DNA of 64,000 nucleotides from Candidatus Parcubacteria bacterium (lineage in GTDB: Bacteria; Patescibacteriota; Minisyncoccia; Minisyncoccales; JAGMDC01): assembly GCA_023128895.1 (NCBI GenBank), contig JAGMDC010000011.1, positions 31,820-95,819 of the forward strand, given 5' to 3'. Both the position numbers and the translations under genes were made by a program. Of this stretch, positions 1,760 through 52,147 are shown one piece after another. Below the pieces are notes generated by a model. It did not search any database, was not told where the DNA came from, and was given only the letters and a program-made list of their open reading frames with translations. Positions within the stretch are counted from its first letter, which is position 1; every line of letters begins with the position of its first letter.

Positions 1760-2503
1760 TTACGAATTACGAATTACGAATTTACGGATTTTTTGGGCTA
1801 AAATTTCTGGATTTTCCGTGTATGGAAAATGGCCAATGCCCGGCAAAATCTCCAACTTAGAATTTGGGATTTCCTTGTCCATCAAGTATGCGTCGGATAT
1901 TGGCGTCATATTATCTTTATCGCCCCAGATAATCAAACAGGGAATTTTAATTTTTGAAAAATATTTTCTTAAATCTTCTTTGATTATATTTCTAAATGTT
2001 TCTTTCAAATACAATGATTTTTCCGCCTGAATATAATCAGTTCTTCGTAAAATGTATTTGTAAAAACCCTTGCGAAACAGATTATACAAGGGAATGGACG
2101 AAAATATCTTTCCAAATTTTGCGATTTTGGAAACGCAAACCCGAACAAATTTTCTTTTCGGAATTATTCCGGCAGATGAAACCAAAATTAATCCTTTTAA
2201 TTTTTCAGGATTTCGCGCTGCGAACTTTATGGCAACCCGGCCCCCGAAAGAATGCCCCAATAAAAAAAACGGCTCATCAAAGTCCGAACAAAATTTCTCA
2301 AACCACCTCACATAATCGTTTAAATCCCATACGCGCGGCAATTCTGTTTCTTTTTTAAACCCCGGCACATCCATCACCTTTATTTTAATACTGCGAGAAC
2401 CGTTCTCGTAGTATTGATTGAGCAGGGATTTTACTGTCTGCCATTTTTCTTTTGAACTGCCCCATCCGTGGAGAATAATAATTGTATCTTGACAAATTGG
2501 CAT
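1760..2503 (-). CDS. alpha/beta-fold hydrolase
   Basis: 247-aa ORF with HGWGSS near the N-terminus, the nucleophile elbow GHSFGG and a C-terminal GIGHFP histidine motif. It contains an in-frame copy of the 29-bp palindrome (QYYENGSRSI). Confidence 0.75.
   Translation of the reverse strand: MPICQDTIIILHGWGSSKEKWQTVKSLLNQYYENGSRSIKIKVMDVPGFKKETELPRVWDLNDYVRWFEKFCSDFDEPFFLLGHSFGGRVAIKFAARNPEKLKGLILVSSAGIIPKRKFVRVCVSKIAKFGKIFSSIPLYNLFRKGFYKYILRRTDYIQAEKSLYLKETFRNIIKEDLRKYFSKIKIPCLIIWGDKDNMTPISDAYLMDKEIPNSKLEILPGIGHFPYTENPEILAQKIRKFVIRNS
2387..2415. repeat. 29-bp palindromic element, copy 1 (inside the hydrolase CDS)
   Basis: aatactgcgagaaccgttctcgtagtatt. One mismatch from a perfect 14+1+14 palindrome. 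Translated in-frame as YYENGSR. Confidence 0.85.
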
Positions 2504-11720: not shown

Positions 11721-11727
11721 ATCTTTT

Positions 11728-11888
11728 AAGGTTGCAGGACAATATCATTTCTACTGCGACTTCCAAAATTTGGTCAAATTTCCCCAAAATTTTCTCAACT
11801 TGTATTCCATACAGGTTTCAAAAATTATTTGAAAAATTTCCCTCAAATTTTGAAACTCTCGCTACGAAAGCATATTGTCCCACAACCT
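11728..11888. mobile_element. MITE family 1, copy 1 (161 bp)
   Basis: The terminal inverted repeats are aaggttgcaggacaatat and atattgtcccacaacctt. The interior is near-identical to copy 41080-41239. It sits 7 bp upstream of the greA start. Confidence 0.75.
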
Positions 11889-11956
11889 TACACCAACATA
11901 TTATGCCATAATATCAAAATAAAAATCCCTGTCAATATGTTAATAACACAGAGGAA

Positions 11957-15784: not shown

Positions 15785-15796
15785 TGATTATCTTTC

Positions 15797-15880
15797 ATTG
15801 TTGCGGCAGAGCCGCATAATTGTTCGCTCGGTCAAAATACAAAAACAAATTTTTGTGTTTTTTCCTCGCTCTCAATTATA
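15797..15880. repeat. 84-bp 5'-region repeat, copy A (paired with 45313-45396)
   Basis: attgttgcggcagagccgcataattgttcgctcgg..cctcgctctcaattata. High identity to copy B. It contains the gcggc-aga-gccgc hairpin next to the downstream start codon. Confidence 0.7.
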
Positions 15881-15906
15881 GCAAAAAATCGGCGGATTGG
15901 CGATTA

Positions 15907-21334: not shown

Positions 21335-21490
21335 ATTGGATGGGATAAGGAAAACAAAACCCATGCTGGTCTCAATTGGATTTTTTCAAAAATTAACCTT
21401 TTGTATAGCTTCATATTTATTAACTATGTGGTTAATAATTCTATACATAGAATATCCTATAATTTAATTTTCTAAAATTTTGCTTCTTGT

Positions 21491-21537
21491 AATCATTACT
21501 TAATCATTACCTTAAATCCTACCCAATCATTACCTTA
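21491..21537. repeat. three direct repeats AATCATTAC(C)TTA at the 3' end of the intact Fic gene
   Basis: Copies lie at 21491-21502, 21502-21514 and 21525-21537. The last one overlaps the Fic stop codon. Confidence 0.6.
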
Positions 21538-22597
21538 AAATATAATAAACGCTTCTGCCTTTTCCAGCTTTTTTAATCACCTTACTTTTAATTAAATCCT
21601 GCAATAACTTATAGGCTGTCTTGTTGCTTACTTTTAATAAATCCCTTATTTGTCTATTGGTTATTTTTCCTTGTTTCTGCAAAAATTCTACCACCTTAAT
21701 TTGCTTATAGTCCAACGCCACTTGCTCGGCTTTGCGGTCTTTTTTCCTGCCCTTTGTTAACATTATTATTTTGTCTTTTACTGCTTTAGCGCTTACTGCC
21801 ACGCCCTCGCAGAAATACTCAATCCACGCTGTTAAATCTAAAATTTTGGGGTCAACGGTTTTCAATGCTTCGTAATAGCGCGGTCTGTCAGAATTATAAA
21901 AATCATCTAATGCAAAAAATCTTTTTGTGTCAAATCCCTGTCTTAACAAAATTAAACTTGCTAATGCTCTGGCGGTTCTGCCATTGCCATCTACAAATGG
22001 GTGTATTCTTACAAATTCGTAGTGCGTAATCCCTGCTTCTAATACAGTGTCTACTTCTTTTGCCTCTTTGCTGTTTAGCCAAACTATAAATTTTTTCATT
22101 TCTGCAGCCACTTCTTTTGCTGGCGGCGGCATAAAAGTAATGCGTCTGGTGAATTGCCCTACTCGTTCGGCTACCACTACTCTCCCTCGCTTCTTCTCGT
22201 CTACTGGTGTGCGGTAATGTCCGCTATTTTTCGGATCGCCTAATACTCCTTTAGTGATAATCTTGTGTAGTTTTAAAATATCCTTTTGAGCAATTTCTTT
22301 TTCTTTCGCTAGGGTATCTAAATGTTTCAGGGCTTCAAAATAATTCAGCACCTCTTTTTTGTCTTTTGCGGCGGCTGTTATTTCTCGCCCTATCATCAAA
22401 TCGCTCACTTCTCCAAGCGATAATTTGTTGCCCTCAATACTTGTTGAGGCGTGAGCGCTTTTGATTAAAGCCTGACGCCTTAAATCAATTTCCCATTTTG
22501 GTACAAGCGGCGCGTTTAAGATAATAGTCCGAGCTTCGGCTATCTCTGACAAAAAACGAATTGTTTTATTTGTAATTGTAAAATTTGGTTTAAACAT
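21530..22597 (-). CDS. Fic family protein with a C-terminal winged-helix domain
   Basis: Fic motif HPFVDGNGRTARAL. The ORF opens at 22639, but MFKPNFTIT (ATG at 22597) matches the paralogue's N-terminus. The C-terminal wHTH is KITNRQIRDLLKVSNKTAYKLLQDL. Confidence 0.9.
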   Translation of the reverse strand: MFKPNFTITNKTIRFLSEIAEARTIILNAPLVPKWEIDLRRQALIKSAHASTSIEGNKLSLGEVSDLMIGREITAAAKDKKEVLNYFEALKHLDTLAKEKEIAQKDILKLHKIITKGVLGDPKNSGHYRTPVDEKKRGRVVVAERVGQFTRRITFMPPPAKEVAAEMKKFIVWLNSKEAKEVDTVLEAGITHYEFVRIHPFVDGNGRTARALASLILLRQGFDTKRFFALDDFYNSDRPRYYEALKTVDPKILDLTAWIEYFCEGVAVSAKAVKDKIIMLTKGRKKDRKAEQVALDYKQIKVVEFLQKQGKITNRQIRDLLKVSNKTAYKLLQDLIKSKVIKKAGKGRSVYYILR

Positions 22598-22674
22598 AAA
22601 TATAATTAGTGAATCTTGGATTGATAAATCATTATTCATTCTACCAAAAAATCGCCTTCAATAAAAGACGAATA

Positions 22675-40014: not shown

Positions 40015-40042
40015 AGTTTACTCATTCCAAAAACCTTGTCAA
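40015..40042 (-). promoter_or_regulatory. island promoter block, copy 4
   Basis: The minus strand reads GGGTTGACAAGGTTTTTGGAATGAGTAAACT, identical in core to copy 1. Confidence 0.6.
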
Positions 40043-40082
40043 CCCCCACACCTAATCTGGTAATCCAGATTAGGTGTGGGGG
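40043..40082. repeat. 40-nt GC-rich hairpin, copy 2
   Basis: cccccacacctaatctgg-taat-ccagattaggtgtggggg, directly abutting the -35 of the promoter block. Confidence 0.75.
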
Positions 40083-40307
40083 TCAAGGGTTGGCGCATAG
40101 GACGATGTCTGGGGGCCAGGAATAGGGAGGAAAAAGTCCTGCGCAAAAGCGCAAAACAAATCATCTATTCAAGGCGCCCAGATATTGTCCTTTTTGTCCG
40201 ACCCTGTCCTAATGAACCCAGACTTTTGTAAGGTATCAAACCCTACACGAAGATTTATATGTTTACCCCGCCGCTTAATAGTGGGGTATTAAAAAGTCTG
40301 GGGTACA

Positions 40308-40362
40308 TTTTCGCGTTCGCTCGGAAGTCCAAGCGAGCTTGCTCGCTTGAACTTCCCTCGCT
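40308..40362. repeat. flank-hairpin-flank element, copy C
   Basis: gcgttcgctcgg-aagtccaagcgagcttgctcgcttgaactt-ccctcgcttcac. The flank pattern is shared with copies at 42156, 15797 and 45313. Confidence 0.45.
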
Positions 40363-40395
40363 TCACTTGAAAATAAAAAGAACATAATTTTCAAT

Positions 40396-40554
40396 GAGAG
40401 GGTGGGACAATATCTTTCGTAGCGAGAGTTTCAAAATTTGAGGCAAATTTTTCAAACAATTTTTGAAACTTAATATTGTTAAGTTGAAAAAATTTTTGGG
40501 AAATTTGACCGAATTTTGGAAATCGCAGCAGAAAGAATATTGTTCTACACTCTC
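40396..40554. mobile_element. MITE family 1, copy 2 (inverted relative to copy 4)
   Basis: gagagggtgggacaatat..atattgttctacactctc. The interior matches the reverse complement of 49972-50130, including the central cttaacaatattaagtt loop. Confidence 0.8.
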
Positions 40555-40639
40555 ACAATGTCCTAATATTAAAAATAAACAAAATTTTGTCAATACCTTT
40601 TATGTCCTAATGTCCCACATCGCCTTTACGGACAATAAA

Positions 40640-40686
40640 ACAAAACCCGTCTTTGTTCAACTGTACAAAGACGGGCTTTGTTTTCT
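40640..40686. terminator. bidirectional intrinsic terminator
   Basis: aaaacccgtctttgt-tcaactgt-acaaagacgggctttgtttt, with T-runs on both strands. Confidence 0.65.
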
Positions 40687-40691
40687 AAAAT

Positions 40692-40818
40692 AATCCCGCA
40701 ATTATCCCGCAATTTATCCCGCAAGCAAACGGCTCAAATGCGGCTCAAAATGCGGATCAAAATGCGGATCAAAATGAAAAAGTTTAACGGACAAATAACG
40801 GACATTTTAACGGACACT
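40692..40818. repeat. iteron-like cluster of three different short direct repeats
   Basis: Three copies of ATCCCGCAA, four of TCAAA(A)TGCGG and three of TAACGGACA occur in 127 bp. The last unit overlaps the stop of the wHTH ORF. Confidence 0.7.
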
Positions 40819-41047
40819 AGATATTAAGTTGGTAGTACGCGTCTTTCTTAGTCCCCACTTTAGCTAATAATTTTACTTTAACTAAATCAGATAAATACCT
40901 TCTGGCGCTTCTTTGAGTAATATCTAAAATATCCTGAACATCGCTACTGGTTATTTTGCCCATTGTCATCATGAAATCAATTATTTTAATCTGGTTTTTG
41001 TCAAGATATACCTGTCCGCCAATTTTCTTTTTCATTTTAATATCCAA
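40817..41047 (-). pseudogene. C-terminal winged-helix fragment of a MITE-split Fic gene
   Basis: The 76-aa ORF (TTG start) aligns with the C-terminus of the intact Fic paralogue (KNQIKIIDFMMTMGKITSSDVQDIL vs YKQIKVVEFLQKQGKITNRQIRDLL). The frame stays open up to the MITE at 41079. Confidence 0.8.
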
Positions 41048-41079
41048 ACTTAAAGGAATAATAGCATCTTTGGTATATT

Positions 41080-41239
41080 GAGAGTGTAGAACAATATCAT
41101 TTCTACTGCGACTTCCAAAATTTGGTCAAATTTCCCAAAAATTTCCTCAACTTGTATTCTATACAGGTTTCAAAAATTATTTGAAAAATTTGTCTCAAAT
41201 TTTGAAATTCTCGCTACGAAAAATATTGTCCTACACTCT
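41080..41239. mobile_element. MITE family 1, copy 3, inserted in a Fic gene
   Basis: 160 bp, gagagtgtagaacaatat..atattgtcctacactctc, flanked by ATATT/ATTTT. Removing the MITE plus one 5-bp flank restores one continuous Fic ORF. Confidence 0.85.
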
Positions 41240-42059
41240 CATTTTTCATTTCAGAATTAAATCCCTGGATAAAATATTCCAGCCAATTAGTCATATCGCC
41301 CTTCATCCGTTCTTCATAATTGTCGCCCAGATGAATTGCCTTATAATACGCGGGACGATTTTTATTGTAATAACTTTCTAAAGCGAATAATCTGCGGAAG
41401 TCATAGCCCCTTTGATAAAGAATAAGGGTCGCTAACAAGCGCGCGGTTCTGCCGTTGCCGTCAGCAAAAGGATGAATAGCCGCAATTTCAGAATGCGCGA
41501 CTCCAGCTACAATGATTGGACAAATATGATTTTTCTTAGTTTGGTTCATATAATTGACTAAATTTTTAGCCAATTGCGGGACTTGTTTCGGGTCTGGGCC
41601 GGTATAAGATATTTTAATAATTTTATTGCCTCTGCGGCTCACGACATAAACTTTGCGCTTTCTAAAACTGCCGCAGTTGTCTTGAGCAATAGTATTTTTT
41701 GTTACTAATTCGTGAATTTTCAAAATGGTCTTAATGGTAATTTTTTGCTTTTTCTGCGCAAATTCGGAAATAAAATACAGCGCGTCGCGGTAATTTTTGA
41801 CTTCAAAAATATCCCGTTCAGGAGCATCAACCTTTTCATTGGATAAAACTTTTTCCACTTCATAACGATTCAATATATTTCCCTCAATGCTGGTAGAGGA
41901 ATGAATCATTCTTATCATTGCTTGCCGCCTTAGTTTCAATTCTTGTTTGGGAAGAATCGGCGTATGTAAAATCAATGATTTGATTTCAGCGATCTCCATT
42001 AAATCATTAAGGATTTGATGCGTGATTGTATATTTTGGAGTAAAGATATTTATTTTCAT
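41214..42059 (-). pseudogene. N-terminal Fic-domain fragment of the MITE-split Fic gene
   Basis: 281 aa with the Fic motif HPFADGNGRTARLL. The last 8 codons (ESVGQYFS-stop) are read from MITE sequence. Confidence 0.8.
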
Positions 42060-42155
42060 TGTTTTATTATTTCATTATAGCGTAAAAATTAGCGAATATC
42101 AATTCGCTATACCACATTTACCTGCAAACGAAGTGCCCCCTTTGGTGTATTTTTT

Positions 42156-42218
42156 GCGTTCGTTCGGAAATACAAACAAACTCGCTTCGCTCGCTTGTTT
42201 GCACTTCTCTCACTTCAC
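42156..42218. repeat. flank-hairpin-flank element, copy D
   Basis: gcgttcgttcgg-aaatacaaacaa..ttgtttgcactt-ctctcacttcac. It overlaps the permease stop codon. Confidence 0.4.
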
Positions 42219-43391
42219 CAAAAAATAAAAAATCTCCAAAGCGATGCCGAGAATGAAAAAGACAGGCAGGATATACAACAAAGGGTTCATCTTGCGGGAA
42301 AACTTTTTCTTCAAAAACGCTTTGTAAAGCAAGATAACTATTACGCCCTCCAGACCTATGGATAAAGCGCCTGTAAATCCAACAATTTCTATAAATTCTT
42401 TAAACCCTAATAAATAAAAAAACAAGGGCAGAAAACAAACAATAAACCAGGAAAGATTTTTAGGCAAGCCAAAATCATACCATAAGGTTTTTTTGAAAAC
42501 CAAACCCAAAGTAATAAAAGAGGTAAAGCAGGCAATCAAACCAAATATAAAGCCCAAGCTGATAACGCTGTTGCCCAGGGTCTGGCTAAAACCGGACATC
42601 GCGTCTTTTGAAGTATCGCCTCCGCAGACCCCTAAAATAATAAAAATAAAAAACAGATAAGCAAGCGCGGCAATTAAAATCCCGTAAATAATCACCTTGT
42701 TCACTCTTTTTTTGTTTGTTTTTATGTCAATTTTTCCGCTCAAAAAATCGCGGCATATTATTTCTTTTAACGCGGGAACCACGGACAAGCCCCACAAAGA
42801 AAACAAAATAACCCCATAAGGCATGGCAAGGAACCTCCAATCCAATACAGAGGTTTGCAGATTTTCTATAGTAATAAAGGGCAGGGCTCTGGCAAAAAAT
42901 ATCAATAAAATAACAAAGAGAACCAATAAAAGCAAAAGTTCAAAAATGGAAATAGACCTGATGCCCCGAAAAATAAAATAAGCGCCAAGGCAAAAAAAGA
43001 GCAAACCATAAACAACAGCGCTCCCTCCAAAATAAGGGGAAAAAAGAAATTTAAGAAACTCGCCCCCAACAATCAGATAAGCCAAAGACGCGCCGGTTAT
43101 GCCTAATCCTGTTATTAAAACCGTAATTTTTCCCCAAGGTTTTCCAAAATATTCGTTGACATAGCCGGGCAAGCGATGGATATTTTTTGTGCCTAAACAA
43201 ACCTTGGCAAAAAGAAGATGAACAATCGTAACAATTACGGTTATAAGCAGGAAAAATAAAAACACAACAAAAAAACTTGCCTTAGAAGCAATATAAGGCA
43301 AGCCGAAAATCCCTACTCCAATTATTGTGCCGGTAAAAATCGCCAGCGCTTTTAAAGAATTTAGCATTTTATCAATGAGACTGCGGGACAA
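42210..43391 (-). CDS. amino acid permease-like polytopic membrane protein
   Basis: 393 aa, about 11 TM helices. The N-terminal GTIIGVGIFGLPYIASKAS resembles aromatic/hydroxy amino-acid permease family motifs. Confidence 0.6.
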   Translation of the reverse strand: MSRSLIDKMLNSLKALAIFTGTIIGVGIFGLPYIASKASFFVVFLFFLLITVIVTIVHLLFAKVCLGTKNIHRLPGYVNEYFGKPWGKITVLITGLGITGASLAYLIVGGEFLKFLFSPYFGGSAVVYGLLFFCLGAYFIFRGIRSISIFELLLLLVLFVILLIFFARALPFITIENLQTSVLDWRFLAMPYGVILFSLWGLSVVPALKEIICRDFLSGKIDIKTNKKRVNKVIIYGILIAALAYLFFIFIILGVCGGDTSKDAMSGFSQTLGNSVISLGFIFGLIACFTSFITLGLVFKKTLWYDFGLPKNLSWFIVCFLPLFFYLLGFKEFIEIVGFTGALSIGLEGVIVILLYKAFLKKKFSRKMNPLLYILPVFFILGIALEIFYFLVK

Positions 43392-43395
43392 TATC

Positions 43396-44998: not shown

Positions 44999-45307
44999 TT
45001 ATTTCACGGGGTAAAGCGATGACTTTTTTAAAATAATTTTATAGATATTTTCAATAATATCCCCGCCAGCGTATCCGAATACAAAACCCAAAGCCGGTGT
45101 CATCGCGCCCACATTAAAAAAACTCAAACCCAGTTCATAAACAGACATCGCGCAAATCACTCCGACAATTCCTGAAATAAACATCATTGCGCAAAAATAG
45201 GGCAGATGAAACCCGACATTTTTGTAAGCGTATTGGTGCTTTGTGTATCCTATTAATCCCCTCACTGCGCCCCCGCCAAACCCGGCAATAAGAATTTCTA
45301 AATACAT
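44999..45307 (-). CDS. small Gly-rich membrane protein
   Basis: 102 aa with 3 hydrophobic helices. It is preceded by the 84-bp repeat, copy B. Confidence 0.45.
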   Translation of the reverse strand: MYLEILIAGFGGGAVRGLIGYTKHQYAYKNVGFHLPYFCAMMFISGIVGVICAMSVYELGLSFFNVGAMTPALGFVFGYAGGDIIENIYKIILKKSSLYPVK

Positions 45308-45312
45308 ATTAT

Positions 45313-45396
45313 ATTATTGCGGCAAAGCCGCATAATTGTTCGCTCGCTTGAAATACAAAAACAAGTTTTCGTATTTCTCCCTCACTCTCAATTATA
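45313..45396. repeat. 84-bp 5'-region repeat, copy B
   Basis: attattgcggcaaagccgcataattgttcgctcgc..ccctcactctcaattata, matching 15797-15880. Confidence 0.7.
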
Positions 45397-45427
45397 TCAA
45401 TTTTTCAATAAATATAGAAGTGGAAAA

Positions 45428-48400
45428 TTACAATTTGCGGAATTCGCAAATGTTTCTGAAATCGCAATACTTGCAATGGAACGGATTCGGGGTCGGCTGA
45501 AAATCGCTCTGCTTAATTTTCTCAACCATATTCTTTATCTTTTCCTCAATCTCTTGTTTGCCTTTCTCTATTCCAATAAAAGAAACAATACTCCCGTCGT
45601 TCAAATAATAATAACTTAATTTTTCCACGCGCAATCCAAATACTTTTTCCGCGGCAATCTGGTAAATCAATAATTGTTCTTTCTCCTCCGGCTTTAACTT
45701 TGTTTTTGATTTTCCTGTTTTATAATCAATAATCTCCACACTTTTGCCTGTATCGTCTATTCTGTCTATTTTCCCGACAAAAGTACTCCCTCCTATTTTC
45801 AGTTTGAAACTTTTTTCCAAGACAGGGATGCCCTGAATTGTTTTGATTTTTGGATTTGTTTTTATAAAATTATCGTAAAAAATTTTAAGCGAATCCTTGC
45901 CCAACTTGTAATACTTCTGTTTCTCTTCTTCATTTTCAAACCATTCGTCTTTCCAATTATTTTTATAAATCTCCATCAGCTCCTCAAATCCAATAGTACG
46001 AGAACCGTTCTCGTAGTATTGATTTTGGTTTGATTGGGCAGGGGCAAACAATTGATTTTGGGAACTATTTTCGCTTTTCATAACCCTGTTTATAAAATCA
46101 TATAGAGTATTATGCATTGTTGTGCCGTAAGTAAATACTGCTTTGCCTTTCACCGGAATTTTCAAAATATGCGCGAATTTATACTGCAAAGGACATTTTT
46201 CAAAATTCGCCAACTGGCTGTAAGAAAAATGGTCTGGAATCTGCCCTCCCGCATCGCTACGCTTCGCTGGCGAAGCGTTGCGGGCGGGGATTTGGGATAT
46301 TTTTAGGATACTTGCCATTGGAACCTGGGATTTATCTATTATCCCTGCTTCCATCAAAAACCGCGAAGGCTTTTTGAGCCGCGCCTGGCCGTAATCTTTC
46401 GCAGAAGTAAAAAACAATCCTTTTTTCGCGCGAGTCATCGCGACATAAAACAACCGCCTTTCCTCCTGTAAGTGAATGTCCCCTTCCGGCGCCACCTCCT
46501 TAACCAATGGCTCTGGAATTTCAATGGGCTCTTTTCTTTCAATCGTTGGAAATCTCTTATCAACCAAATTAACCAAAAAAACATACTTAAATTCCAAGCC
46601 CTTTGCGGAATGGATTGTCATAATTTTTACTGTTTCTTCGCCCAATTCTGGATTAAATTTCAACGAGCCCTCTTCGCCGGACTCCAATTCCATATCTATC
46701 TGCTGAATAAATAAGTTTAATTTAGGGTCTGTTTGCTCATCCTCAAACCGCTTAATTCTGTCATAAAATTGATTTATTAAGTCCAAATTTTCTTTCATTT
46801 TTTCCGGTTTCTTTTCTTTTGTTAAATGCTCCAAATATCCTGAATCCTGCAAAAATTCCACAAAAATCTCGCTGATATTTTTCTTTTGCGCCGCGGCGCT
46901 GTGCTTTTTGAGCAAACCTAAAATACTGCTGATTTTCTGCTGTCCCTGTTGGGAAATGCCTTGAATTAAAGGCAATTCCTCCATTGCTTCATACATAGAA
47001 CGAGCTTTGCGACGGCTGTATTGATTTATTCTTACTATATCGTCATAAGCAACCTTAAAACAAGGAATATTCAAAACCCTGTAAACAGCGGAACTTTCAA
47101 AATAATTGTCCAGCAATTTAAGATACGAAATAATGTCTAAAACAATTGGCTTGGAATACAGGCCTTTTGAAGACAAAAATTGATAAGGTATGTTCGCGCG
47201 CTCCATCGCGCGGGAAAACATATTTGCCGCCTCATTGGTTCTGCAAAGAATAGCAAAATCATTAAACGCAATATCTTGAGATTTGCTTTTGAGCTCTAAA
47301 ATTTTATTGACAACGCCGTCAAATTCCAGTTCTTTGGTGTCAAAAAATAAATGTTCAATCACTGCTTTGTCTGTTTTCGCGGCTTTTAATCTTTTGTCAA
47401 TTTTTTTAAATTCTGTCAAATCAACTCCTTTTTCGCGCGCACTTTGGGAAATTTCCTTTACTTTGTTGAGCTGGTATTCCAAGCGATTGGGATTATTAAA
47501 TTGGATGAATTTATAAGATAAGTCCAAAATGTTCTGACAGGAGCGATAATTTTCCGTAAGCACTATTTCCTTTGCTTTTGGAAAATCTTTTCTGAATTGC
47601 AAAACATTATTAAAAGAAGCGCCTCTCCACCTATACACACTTTGGTCGTCGTCTCCGCAAACCATAATATTGTTCTTTGGCTCAGCAATTTGTTTTACCA
47701 ATTCATACTGCGCCCAATTAGTGTCCTGAAATTCGTCCACTAAAATATACTTAAATTGTTTTCTGAATTTCTCTAAAATAAGAGGCCTCTGCTGGAATAA
47801 TTTCAAGCAGTAATTGATTAAATCAGCGAAATCCAGACAATTATTTTCCAACAATAAGCGCTGGTATGTATGATAAGCGTTTGCTATTTCTTTAATTCTG
47901 TCACGCTCGTCCTGCAGGCAGGCGAGTTCGCTTTTGTCTTTTGATTTTATTGCCTTGCTCCCAACTGGCGCGTCGTTTGTATTAAACTGCAAATCCTCGC
48001 TGTATTTCAAATATTGTTCCGGCGCGATTCCCTCGTCTTTGCACCGGGAAAAATGATTAAGCAAACTCTGTATAAACTTTGTTGGATTGCCCAACGGCTT
48101 ATAATAATCCAAATCAAACTTGTCTAAATTCTGGCGTATCAAAAGCCAGGACCCTACTTGGTCCAATAACCGAAAATTAGTTGAAAGCCCGATGTCCAAC
48201 CCGTAATTTTTCAAAACCCGCTCGCAAAAAGAATGAAAAGTGGAAATCCAAAATTCTGAATAATTATCCGGGAATATCTCCTCTACCCTATCCGCCATTT
48301 CTTCCGCGGCTTTTTCCGTAAAAGTTAAACCTAAAATTTCTTCTGGCTTTGCTTTTTTGGTTTTAATAAGTTCAGCGATTCTTTCCGTAATTACGGTTGT

Positions 48401-48555: not shown

Positions 48556-48584
48556 AATACTACGAGAACCGTTCTCGTAACATT
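48556..48584. repeat. 29-bp palindromic element, copy 3 (intergenic)
   Basis: aatactacgagaaccgttctcgtaacatt. Confidence 0.8.
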
Positions 48585-48694
48585 GGAGATTTGAAGATTT
48601 TATTGAATCAGGTTATAATATAAAATGATTAAAGGTCGGTAAATTGGACAAATCAAAATATAATATAATATAATTTATATCAAATCAAAAAAAT

Positions 48695-49936: not shown

Positions 49937-49971
49937 CTTCAAGGCGGAAAATAATTAAAATTTAATAGTTT

Positions 49972-50130
49972 GAGAGTGTAGAGCAATATCCTTTCTACTG
50001 CGATTTCCAAAATTCGGTCAAATTTCCCAAAAATTTTCTCAACTTAACAATATTAAGTTTCAAAAATTGTTTGAAAAATTTACCTCAAATTTTGAAAACC
50101 TCGTTACGAAAAATATTGTTCTACACTCTC
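49972..50130. mobile_element. MITE family 1, copy 4
   Basis: gagagtgtagagcaatat..atattgttctacactctc, 159 bp, flanked by a perfect AGTTT/AGTTT direct repeat. Confidence 0.85.
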
Positions 50131-50144
50131 AGTTTTTGTAAAAT

Positions 50145-51813: not shown

Positions 51814-51842
51814 AATACTACGAGAACGGTTCTCGTAGTATT
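51814..51842. repeat. 29-bp palindromic element, copy 4 (intergenic, opposite orientation)
   Basis: aatactacgagaacggttctcgtagtatt. The arms are perfect and the central base is flipped (g instead of c). Confidence 0.85.
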
Positions 51843-51844
51843 AA

Positions 51845-52147
51845 TTAATTTATGAATTTTTCAAGTTCGGGATATTTGATTTGAAAATCCTTAAATTCGC
51901 CTGTGTATTCCTGGGGTTCAATATCTATATTGTCAACTCTCGCGAACATCGGGCCTTTTTTCGTCCATTTCACGATTTTTTCCACTTTTTCTTTTTCGCC
52001 TTCAAACATTGCTTCCACTCTGTTGTCCGACAAATTCTGGACCCAGCCGAAAACCCCTAACTTTCGCGCGCGCTTCATAACGCTGTCCCTAAAAAAAACG
52101 CCCTGCACCTTTCCTAAAACAAAGATATGAACCCTAACTTTTTCCAT
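51845..52147 (-). CDS. acyP: acylphosphatase
   Basis: 100 aa. GKVQGVFFRDSVMKRARKLGVFGWVQNLSDNRVE matches the acylphosphatase signatures. Confidence 0.85.
   Translation of the reverse strand: MEKVRVHIFVLGKVQGVFFRDSVMKRARKLGVFGWVQNLSDNRVEAMFEGEKEKVEKIVKWTKKGPMFARVDNIDIEPQEYTGEFKDFQIKYPELEKFIN

What the first reader, a model, noticed from the sequence alone, without database searches (positions are those of the whole stretch)
40817..42059. MITE insertion splits a Fic gene; precise excision restores the ORF
The Fic-domain ORF 41214-42059 ends in 8 codons read from the MITE (ESVGQYFS-stop). The wHTH ORF 40817-41047 is open in the same phase right up to the other MITE end. The MITE (41080-41239, 160 bp) is flanked by ATATT and ATTTT. 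Deleting the MITE plus one 5-bp flank (165 bp, or 55 codons) joins the two parts in frame. The joined sequence reads ..YFIQGFNSEMKN-TKDAIIPLSLDIKMKKK... It aligns without gaps to the intact paralogue, ..YFCEGVAVSAKAVKDKIIMLTKGRKKDRK.. (21530-22597). This is direct evidence for transposition of this MITE family with a 5-bp target duplication. It also leaves a possible two-piece Fic (catalytic domain separated from its DNA-binding domain).
Basis: seen in the sequence. Interest (0 to 1): 0.65.

Follow-up and report, generated by a model that had tools for sequence, protein, structure and literature searches.

The report
MITE insertion splits a Fic gene
A 163-base non-coding mobile element has landed inside a SoFic-type Fic (protein-AMPylating, candidate anti-phage) gene of a Parcubacteria genome and cut the enzyme from its DNA-binding tail; this is an ordinary kind of gene disruption, though it is unusually cleanly documented.

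Summary

**The insertion**
- The element is 41080-41240 (161 bp), or 41079-41241 (163 bp) if the conserved T..A ends are counted.
- The two ORFs are one base out of phase, not in the same phase.
- This ORF aligns without a gap at the junction to the window paralogue (39% identity, E 9e-88) and to 13 intact 354-359-aa orthologues (68-80% identity).
- The filled site is 100% identical in scaffolds from four samples, so it is not a chimera.

**The element**
- It has every MITE feature except a known parent transposase: four copies in 64 kb, terminal inverted repeats, a whole-length hairpin and no coding capacity.
- Target duplication is more likely 3 bp with TG..CA ends than 5 bp. In this copy it is imperfect.

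**The gene**
- It is a SoFic-type class II Fic-wHTH gene.
- The break lies in the middle of the long helix that links the two domains.
- A working two-piece Fic is not supported.

**Side finding, more novel**
- Orthologues carry triplets of 8-10-nt direct repeats, 11-12 nt apart, starting at the stop codon.
- The first repeat word follows the wHTH recognition-helix class, not the Fic body.

The parts
41241..42059 (-). Native N-terminal part of the SoFic-type Fic gene (codons 1-273). It carries the inhibitory motif STSIEGN and the catalytic motif HPFADGNGR.
   Evidence: Pfam Fic 8.6e-20; PADLOC SoFic model matched end to end on the rejoined protein, E 4e-60.
41214..41240 (-). Eight element-encoded codons (ESVGQYFS) plus the TAG stop that now end the Fic ORF.
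41079..41241 (+). MITE copy B, 163 bp: TGAGAGTGTAGAACAATAT..ATATTGTCCTACACTCTCA. The GAGAG..CTCTC core is 41080-41240 (161 bp). The whole element folds into one long imperfect hairpin.
   Evidence: -36.7 kcal/mol as ssDNA, z = -9.1.
41075..41079 (.). Left target-site flank: ATATT in the 5-bp reading, or TAT at 41076-41078 in the 3-bp reading.
41241..41245 (.). Right target-site flank: ATTTT in the 5-bp reading, or TTT at 41242-41244 in the 3-bp reading. One mismatch to the left flank.
40817..41074 (-). Orphaned C-terminal part (TKDAIIPLSLD..wHTH..YYQLNI-stop), one base out of phase with the Fic ORF. The mechanical ORF is 40817-41047 (TTG start); an ATG lies at 41035.
   Evidence: Gene callers list a 72-aa product.
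40688..40816 (-). Array of direct repeats that starts at the stop codon: (A)TGTCCGTTA x3, TTGA(T/G)CCGCAT x3-4, TTGCGGGAT(A/T) x3, with an 11-12-nt period.
40637..40684 (.). Bidirectional terminator-like hairpin that closes the Fic locus.
   Evidence: (I4).
42074..42102 (-). Promoter-like site of the Fic gene (TTGATA-17-TATAAT, 11/12), overlapped by the palindrome 42090-42109.
40395..40555 (-). MITE copy A. Intergenic, flanked by TTG/TTG.
49971..50131 (+). MITE copy C. Lies between two S8 peptidase genes, flanked by GTT/GTT (AGTTT/AGTTT in the 5-bp reading).
11727..11890 (+). MITE copy D. It is 93% identical to copy B inside, but both ends have changed together (TAAGGTTGCAGGACAATAT / ATATTGTCCCACAACCTTA). 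No duplication is visible. Intergenic.
21530..22597 (-). Intact paralogue (the mechanical ORF extends to 22639). It has its own 3' array, AGGTAATGATT x3-4, at 21490-21538.

Best explanation
A 163-bp non-autonomous transposon with terminal inverted repeats (a MITE), from a small family found in Parcubacteria-type genomes, inserted between codons 273 and 274 of a SoFic-type class II Fic-wHTH gene.

- The insertion added 166 bp: the element plus a short target duplication, most likely 3 bp with TG..CA element ends.
- This shifts the frame and stops translation after 8 element-encoded codons.
- It leaves a 281-aa Fic fragment without its DNA-binding domain, and an orphan wHTH ORF one base out of phase.
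- The allele is the only one assembled in the sampled population.
- It is young relative to the divergence of the orthologues, because neither fragment carries further lesions.
- The simplest functional reading is a recently inactivated, or at least decoupled, Fic gene.

Shown here: the insertion, the exact restoration of the ORF, repeat-family membership and independent assembly.

Inferred: mobilisation in trans by a DDE transposase that recognises the TIRs, and loss of function.
For: - **Restoration.** Deleting 166 bp gives a 358-aa ORF. It aligns to the paralogue over its full length. It aligns to 13 intact orthologues of 354-359 aa (68-80% identity) with no gap at the junction. Deletions of 163 or 160 bp would add one or two residues that no orthologue has.
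- **Empty site in a relative.** The DNA of the 80% orthologue reads ATG AAA AAA GTA AAA GAT at the site where the window reads ATG AAA AAT|ACC AAA GAT.
- **Element features.** The TIR has 7 matches against 0.01 expected. There are four copies in 64 kb, three of them intergenic. Further members occur in JGI metagenomes. The element forms a whole-length hairpin, z = -9. There is no Rfam match and no tRNA.
- **Not a chimera.** 1701 bp across both junctions are 100% identical in scaffolds from four samples. Three Logan contigs carry the same 281-aa product and stop inside the repeat.
- **No decay.** The gene has only 4 private, conservative changes at columns that are otherwise invariant. Intact orthologues have 0-7.
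- **Break position.** The break is in the middle of helix 258-292, between the Fic core and the wHTH.
Against: - No autonomous element with these TIRs was found in the window, in 60 fetched loci, or in the one genome-contig scan. That scan gave 23 isolated hits, all in other phyla. By my own estimate a few tens of such hits are expected by chance for this pattern.
- The duplication at this copy has one mismatch, and copy D shows none.
- No empty-site allele of the same species was seen. The best intact relative is 80% identical. Mobility is therefore inferred from comparison between species, not from polymorphism.
- Loss of function is not demonstrated. NCBI annotates the 281-aa piece as an ordinary Fic family protein.
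Confidence: 0.9

Rival explanations
1. The split is functional. The truncated Fic enzyme and a separately translated wHTH protein both work, as a two-piece or domesticated arrangement. The element would supply the stop codon and perhaps an outward promoter.
For: - Both fragments are free of further lesions, and conserved residues are kept.
- A weak promoter-like match lies inside the element, facing the wHTH piece (41185-41156, 9/12).
- The catalytic and inhibitory motifs are intact.
- In CccR, toxicity and DNA binding are separable (PMC9755527).
Against: - The break is in the middle of a 35-residue helix, not at a domain boundary.
- I see no Shine-Dalgarno-like sequence ahead of either candidate start of the wHTH piece.
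- The 10 promoter-like matches in the region are not clearly above the shuffle mean of 5.8, sd 2.2.
- In CbFic2, deleting the HTH abolishes dimerisation and AMPylation (PMC10628234).
- The lack of decay is equally explained by a recent insertion.
- All ten complete orthologue loci examined downstream are fused or visibly disrupted; none is a native two-gene form.
Confidence: 0.1
2. Assembly artefact: a repeat was spliced into the gene by the assembler.
For: The element is a multi-copy repeat, and short-read contigs do break inside it (the Logan contigs end at about 41178).
Against: - Four scaffolds from four different samples span both junctions with 100% identity over 1701 bp.
- The insert has its own sequence: 88-93% identical to the other copies, not a duplicate of any of them.
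- The junctions sit exactly at the TIR ends, with short similar flanks.
Confidence: 0.02
3. The 163-bp unit is not a transposon. It would be a hairpin repeat spread by recombination, or a structured RNA or DNA element (REP-like), and its ends co-vary in order to keep base pairing.
For: - The whole element is one long hairpin.
- Subfamilies show matched changes in both ends (copy D; L034, L038, L039).
- No transposase partner was found.
Against: - The boundaries are sharp and lie exactly at the inverted repeats.
- Two of four copies of this subfamily have perfect 3-bp flanking duplications.
- Insertion into a coding sequence added exactly element + 3 bp relative to 13 orthologues.
- Matched ends are also what is expected when subfamilies use different transposases.
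- There is no Rfam family.
Confidence: 0.05

Closest known systems
Bacterial MITEs (for example Correia elements of Neisseria and RUP of Streptococcus pneumoniae; comparison from my own knowledge)
   Same: About 100-200 bp, terminal inverted repeats, no ORF, multi-copy, mostly intergenic, fold into a long hairpin, short target duplication, and occasionally interrupt genes.
   Different: - The sequence is unrelated to anything in the phage or plasmid collections and has no Rfam family.
- The host is a Parcubacteria (CPR) genome.
- The paper library holds only 3 papers that mention MITEs together with Patescibacteria or CPR, each in passing (1-2 occurrences of each term, none in a title or abstract); I did not open them.
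- The parent IS is unknown.
IS3-family insertion sequences (a lead from memory only: inverted repeats ending 5'-TG..CA-3', 3-5-bp duplication)
   Same: The element ends are TG..CA, and the best-fitting duplication is 3 bp.
   Different: No transposase was found. Related subfamilies end TA..TA. The TIR was not compared with ISfinder.
SoFic / CccR / CbFic2: class II Fic enzymes with a C-terminal wHTH
   Same: - The PADLOC SoFic model is matched end to end (E 4e-60 for the rejoined protein, 1e-64 for the paralogue).
- An N-terminal (S/T)xxxE(G/N) inhibitory motif, the HPFxDGNGR catalytic loop, a long linker helix and a wHTH are present.
- The solved relatives 4rgl, 8uqu, 8cil, 7xux and 3eqx are hit.
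   Different: - The score is only 67 bits against the NCBIfam SoFic equivalog cut-off of 550, so this is a distant relative and not an equivalog.
- The known DNA targets are in the gene's own promoter: two inverted 10-bp repeats 26 bp apart in CccR (PMC9755527), and the first 100 bp upstream in SoFic (bioRxiv 10.64898/2026.07.09.737422).
- Here the conserved repeats are direct, in triplets, and lie 3' of the gene.
PhoB/OmpR-type pho boxes, and C-terminal displacement in polymorphic toxin loci (analogies from my own knowledge, for the 3' arrays)
   Same: - Like a pho box: a conserved core plus a 3-4-nt A/T spacer, repeated head to tail every 11-12 nt.
- Like toxin/immunity displacement: variable C-terminal modules with leftover 'orphan' partners downstream.
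   Different: No binding data exist. The partner here would be DNA words rather than an immunity gene.

Membership tests
MITE (non-autonomous TIR transposon) | Small size (under about 500 bp) with no coding capacity | tested here: met
   159-164 bp. Only chance ORFs with stops in most copies.
MITE (non-autonomous TIR transposon) | Terminal inverted repeats | tested here: met
   The 18-19-nt TIR has 7 matches against 0.01 expected. The arms extend to 46 nt at 78% complementarity.
MITE (non-autonomous TIR transposon) | Multiple dispersed copies | tested here: met
   Four copies in 64 kb, plus relatives in 11 JGI metagenome loci.
MITE (non-autonomous TIR transposon) | Target-site duplication of fixed length | tested here: inconclusive
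   - 3-bp reading: TTG/TTG, GTT/GTT, TAT/TTT, TTA/TTT.
- 5-bp reading: 4/5, 5/5, 4/5, and a poor fit for the fourth copy (L041).
- Copy D and the other subfamilies show no duplication.
- Independent support comes from the Fic site: 166 extra bp against a 163-bp (or 161-bp) element.
MITE (non-autonomous TIR transposon) | Filled versus empty site | tested here: met
   Empty sites exist in 13 orthologues and the paralogue, that is, between species. A same-species empty allele was not found.
MITE (non-autonomous TIR transposon) | Cognate autonomous IS with the same TIRs | tested here: not met
   None in the window or in the fetched loci. The genome-contig scan gave only isolated hits in other phyla. 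The rest of the source genome could not be read.
IS3-family derivative | TG..CA termini and a 3-5-bp duplication | tested here: met
   TGAGAG..CTCTCA ends in copies A, B and C. The family definition is from memory.
IS3-family derivative | Mobilised by an IS3-type DDE transposase, with TIR similarity to a known IS3 member | not testable with these tools
   There is no IS database, and no transposase was found.
SoFic-type class II Fic-wHTH | Fic catalytic motif HxFx(D/E)GNGR | tested here: met
   HPFADGNGR. Pfam Fic 8.6e-20.
SoFic-type class II Fic-wHTH | N-terminal inhibitory helix motif (S/T)xxxE(G/N) | tested here: met
   STSIEGN at residues 55-61, invariant in the orthologues. The class definition is from PMC3667792 (listed).
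SoFic-type class II Fic-wHTH | C-terminal winged helix on the same polypeptide | tested here: not met
   Present in the rejoined protein and in all orthologues. In the window as it stands it is a separate, out-of-phase ORF.
SoFic-type class II Fic-wHTH | Curated family score | tested here: inconclusive
   The PADLOC SoFic model is matched end to end, E 4e-60. NCBIfam NF046030 scores 66.9 bits against a cut-off of 550.
SoFic-type class II Fic-wHTH | Anti-phage or AMPylation activity | not testable with these tools
   Needs experiment.

The most novel reading that the evidence does not exclude
In this Parcubacteria Fic clade, the wHTH recognition helix and the triplet of direct repeats that starts at the stop codon form a matched protein-DNA specificity pair.

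- The pairs would be exchanged as C-terminal modules, leaving 'orphan' arrays of earlier modules stacked downstream.
- The enzyme would be anchored, or regulated, at the 3' end of its own gene rather than at its promoter.
- The MITE would then have cut the catalytic domain from this anchor.

Evidence so far:
- The first repeat word matches the recognition-helix class in 10 orthologue loci plus the paralogue (7 classes). One match was predicted before the look-up.
- The word follows the tail and not the Fic body. Same-word pairs have tails 77-85% identical; different-word pairs 30-74%. Body identity is 77% on average in both groups. P0008 and P0029 have bodies 92% identical but different words.
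- In class B (TGTCGCGATT; L054, L055, L056) the word cores are largely conserved while the spacers vary. The 34-nt first array is identical in the window, L001 and L049, although the adjacent coding DNA is about 80% identical.
- In the window, non-coding arrays of this period with at least 3 copies occur only behind the two Fic genes.
- L055 keeps remnants of earlier gene ends in front of the later words.
Probability: 0.4. Interest if true: 0.6.

Novelty: new member of a known kind. Interest (0 to 1): 0.35.

Why it matters
**What the finding adds**
- It is a clean case of MITE activity in a Candidate Phyla Radiation genome, a group whose small genomes are usually thought poor in mobile DNA.
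- It shows a candidate defence or toxin gene (SoFic type) being knocked out by selfish DNA.
- In a Falkowbacteria relative, the orthologous gene is cut at another site by a different small element. This suggests that these Fic genes are frequent and tolerated targets.
- None of this changes how MITEs or Fic proteins are understood.

**The side observation**
- It concerns the link between the 3' repeat triplets and the wHTH recognition-helix class.
- It could give a directly testable DNA target for a family of Fic-wHTH enzymes whose DNA-binding role is only now being worked out.

Tried and rejected
- **TA-duplicating (IS630/mariner-like) reading of the ends.** Rejected. Copies A, B and C all end TG..CA. 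A 159+2-bp insert would be 161 bp, which cannot restore the frame.
- **Search for the parent IS.**
  - The TIR scan of genome contigs gave 23 single hits in unrelated phyla. By my own estimate a few tens are expected by chance.
  - A fuzzy TIR search of the window and all loci found only elements of about 160 bp.
  - The viral-contig scan found nothing.
  - Phage and plasmid blastn gave no match.
- **Known RNA.** There is no Rfam family at gathering score in the window and only sub-threshold noise locally. No tRNA or tmRNA was found.
- **Same words upstream.** I looked for the same words, or any shared motif, upstream of the orthologues as promoter operators. None are shared.
- **Generality of the 3' arrays.** Two more distant homologues (53-54% identity; L059, L060) have no triplets, so the feature is clade-limited.
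- **Decay.** I tested for excess private substitutions in the split gene. There is none.
- **Not attempted.** I did not search proteins with element-encoded pseudo-ORFs to find more copies. I judged the yield too low for the cost, because gene callers did not call such ORFs in L025-L028.
Full report
**1. What is in the sequence**

On the minus strand, an ORF runs from 42059 to 41214 (281 aa). It carries a Fic domain (Pfam E 5e-20), the class II inhibitory motif STSIEGN and the catalytic loop HPFADGNGR. It ends in ESVGQYFS-stop.

Downstream, a second minus-strand ORF (41047-40817, 76 aa) has weak winged-helix matches.

Between the two lies a repeat with ends GAGAGTGTAGAACAATAT / ATATTGTCCTACACTCTC. 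This 18-mer, allowing up to 3 mismatches, occurs 7 times in the window against 0.01 expected.

The core GAGAG..CTCTC spans 41080-41240 and is 161 bp, not 160. With the conserved flanking T and A it is 41079-41241, 163 bp.

**2. The excision test**

The two ORFs are one base out of phase: (42059-41047) mod 3 = 1. Any deletion of length 1 mod 3 therefore fuses them, and a 165-bp deletion does not.

Frame restoration alone has a one-in-three chance, so the weight lies on collinearity:
- The rejoined protein aligns over its full length to the paralogue 21530-22639(-), with 39% identity and E 9e-88. There is no gap at the junction.
- A database search found many uninterrupted orthologues of 354-359 aa. 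The best 39 full-length hits (94-100% query coverage) are 68-80% identical.
- Thirteen of them align with no gap anywhere near the junction.
- Deletions of 163 or 160 bp would leave one or two extra residues that no orthologue has. The extra DNA is therefore 166 bp.
- The closest orthologue's DNA reads ATG AAA AAA GTA AAA GAT where the window reads ATG AAA AAT | ACC AAA GAT.

**3. Not an artefact**

The exact 281-aa product, with its element-encoded tail, is on record from at least 7 samples. It is annotated at NCBI as a Fic family protein of a Candidatus Parcubacteria bacterium, on a 403,582-bp contig.

Four scaffolds from four samples are 100% identical to the window over 1701 bp that span both junctions. 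Three Logan contigs stop inside the repeat, as short-read contigs do.

No intact allele closer than 80% identity is in the protein collection. In the sampled population only the filled site has been assembled.

**4. What the element is**

- There are four copies in 64 kb: 40395-40555 (-), 41079-41241 (+), 49971-50131 (+) and a diverged copy at 11727-11890. The other three are intergenic.
- The element has no coding capacity and folds into a single long hairpin (-36.7 kcal/mol as ssDNA, z = -9.1).
- It matches no Rfam family, and nothing in the phage or plasmid collections.
- A conserved internal 21-mer retrieved related elements of about 160 bp from 11 JGI metagenome loci. These include one full copy and one truncated left end of the same subfamily (L041, L032), and subfamilies with other, matched ends such as TAGACCTGTTGCTTAATA..TATTAAGCAACAGATCTA.
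- Copy D is 93% identical to copy B internally, but its two ends have changed together.
- Flanks, counting T..A as part of the element, are TTG/TTG (A), GTT/GTT (C), TAT/TTT (B) and TTA/TTT (L041).
- T..A is kept in subfamilies whose TIRs otherwise differ. I therefore favour a 163-bp element with TG..CA ends and a 3-bp duplication. Both readings give 166 bp.
- From memory, TG..CA ends with a 3-bp duplication point to an IS3-type parent. This is a lead, not a test.
- A TA-duplicating (mariner/IS630-like) reading is excluded.
- No autonomous partner was found in anything I could read.

**5. What the gene is and where it was cut**

- Both the rejoined protein and the paralogue match the PADLOC SoFic model end to end (E 4e-60 and 1e-64). 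They fall far below the NCBIfam SoFic equivalog cut-off (67 against 550 bits). They are distant SoFic-type class II Fic-wHTH proteins.
- An AlphaFold model of the 80% orthologue (pLDDT 88) shows the Fic core, a 35-residue helix (258-292) and a winged helix (helices 300-312, 317-324 and 328-340, then a beta wing).
- The insertion point corresponds to residues 274|275 of that model, in the middle of the long helix.
- The split gene has 4 private, conservative substitutions at columns that are otherwise invariant. Intact orthologues have 0-7. There is no sign of decay, so the event is recent on this time scale.
- I see no Shine-Dalgarno-like sequence in front of the wHTH piece. The only promoter-like match that faces it is a weak 9/12 site inside the element.
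- Published work on relatives bears on the consequences. The wHTH of CccR and of SoFic binds the gene's own promoter (PMC9755527; bioRxiv 10.64898/2026.07.09.737422). Deleting the HTH of CbFic2 abolishes dimerisation and AMPylation (PMC10628234).
- A working two-piece Fic is therefore possible but unsupported. A recently disabled or decoupled gene is the simplest reading.

**6. The same gene is hit elsewhere**

- In a Falkowbacteria lineage, recorded on more than 24 contigs, the orthologue stops at residue 298 followed by a 7-residue foreign tail.
- There, 301 extra bp with roughly 20-bp inverted ends ((C/A)ACCCCGCACCTTTTAAGCAT) carry an 86-aa GIY-YIG ORF on the opposite strand.
- Removing them joins ..KKQI|KIVDF.. 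in frame with the 66-aa wHTH remainder.
- Another orthologue (P0043) lacks its first 50 or so codons.

**7. Side finding: repeat triplets at the stop codon**

- Starting at the stop codon, the window carries (A)TGTCCGTTA x3, TTGA(T/G)CCGCAT x3-4 and TTGCGGGAT(A/T) x3, with an 11-12-nt period (40816-40688). A terminator hairpin follows.
- GTCCGTTA occurs nowhere else in the 64 kb.
- In the window, non-coding arrays of this period with at least 3 copies occur only behind the two Fic genes. The paralogue has AGGTAATGATT x3-4.
- All ten orthologue loci examined have such triplets at the stop codon, although their neighbouring genes differ.
- The first word goes with the sequence of the predicted recognition helix:
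  - ITQRSARRYL: TGTCCGTTA (window, L001, L049)
  - KRTAQRYINEIL: TGTCGCGATT (L054, L055, L056; the last was predicted before the look-up)
  - AKRTAQLYLQDL: TTGCGYGRTT (L053)
  - KERMAQNYLKEL: TTGCGGGATW (L057)
  - SPATAKRLIQSL: TGAGCCGCAT (L045)
  - SKRTAIRLINSL: TGGCACGCAA (L058)
- Fic-body identity averages 77% whether or not two proteins share a word. Tail identity is 77-85% for same-word pairs and 30-74% for different-word pairs. P0008 and P0029 have bodies 92% identical but different tails and different words.
- Later words in an array are the first words of other classes. L055 keeps remnants of old gene ends in front of them.
- Two more distant homologues lack the triplets. No shared motif exists upstream of the genes.
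- The layout resembles a winged-helix protein binding head to tail along one face of the DNA (pho-box-like; my own knowledge), with C-terminal modules displaced over time. Simple linkage of adjacent DNA is the alternative. It does not easily explain a 34-nt array that is identical across genes whose adjacent coding DNA is only about 80% identical, or the conserved cores with free spacers in class B. No binding data exist.
- The paper library has no paper that combines Fic, winged helix, direct repeats and AMPylation.

**8. Verdict**

Corrections:
- 161 or 163 bp, not 160.
- 166 bp, not 165.
- The ORFs are out of phase.
- The duplication is imperfect, and 3 bp is more likely than 5.

A MITE interrupting a gene is a known kind of event. 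This is a new family in a little-studied phylum, so the novelty is 'new member of a known kind' and the interest is modest. The array and recognition-helix covariation found next to it is the more unusual lead.

Noticed in passing
window 40688-40816 (and 21490-21538); L001 2115-2150, L049 3928-3990, L045 4370-4470, L053-L058 just after each Fic stop codon: Triplets of 8-10-nt direct repeats with an 11-12-nt period start at the stop codon of the Fic-wHTH genes. The first word follows the wHTH recognition-helix class, not the Fic body. Later words are the first words of other classes. Two homologues at 53-54% identity lack the triplets.
   Followed up: yes
L045 3895-4195 (also L046-L048): A 301-bp insertion with roughly 20-bp inverted ends ((C/A)ACCCCGCACCTTTTAAGCAT) carries an 86-aa GIY-YIG ORF. 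It splits the orthologous Fic gene of a Falkowbacteria lineage at ..KKQI|KIVDF... A TIR-flanked element that encodes a GIY-YIG protein is unusual.
   Followed up: partly
L049-L052 (P0043): An orthologous Fic gene lacks its first 50 or so codons and starts 29 bp from a divergent 792-aa gene. This is a third independent lesion in this orthologue group.
   Followed up: no
window 11727-11890; L034, L038, L039, L033 and others: MITE subfamilies share the internal sequence, but both ends have changed in matched fashion (for example TAAGGTTGCAGG.. / ..CCACAACCTTA). All begin with T and end with A.
   Followed up: partly
L032 141-213: The left 72 nt of the MITE lie directly upstream of an rplN-like ORF (MIQIQTILKSADNTG..). 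This may be a truncated copy in a ribosomal-protein operon.
   Followed up: no
window 40038-40375: A G+C-rich block sits in a 1.1-kb gene-free stretch. It has a perfect 19-bp hairpin (40042-40083) and a second hairpin (40323-40356). No Rfam family matches.
   Followed up: no
window 40313-40379 and 42155-42231; possibly also 15790-15884 and 45306-45400: A small repeat of the form GTTCG(C/T)TCGG - hairpin - C(C/T)CTC(G/A)CT flanks the Fic locus on both sides (79% identical). A similar pair, 84% identical, lies elsewhere in the window. That the two pairs are related is judged by eye only.
   Followed up: no
window 2387-2432, 45992-46037, 48556-48601, 51814-51859: Four copies of a palindromic unit AATACTACGAGAACCGTTCTCGTAGTATT. 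It looks like a terminator or a REP-like element.
   Followed up: no
window 42090-42109: The palindrome TAGCGAATTGATATTCGCTA overlaps the -35 hexamer of the Fic promoter-like site. It could be an operator, but it is not conserved upstream of the orthologues.
   Followed up: partly
window 43376-43394: A solitary TIR-like sequence, TGAGACTGCGGGACAATAT (4 mismatches), lies at the start of the permease gene. No partner end was found. It is either chance or a relic.
   Followed up: no
L058 about 693-820: Six tandem copies of GCCCTCTCCTGTCATTCCGCG lie upstream of the Fic orthologue in GCA_027717985.1.
   Followed up: no
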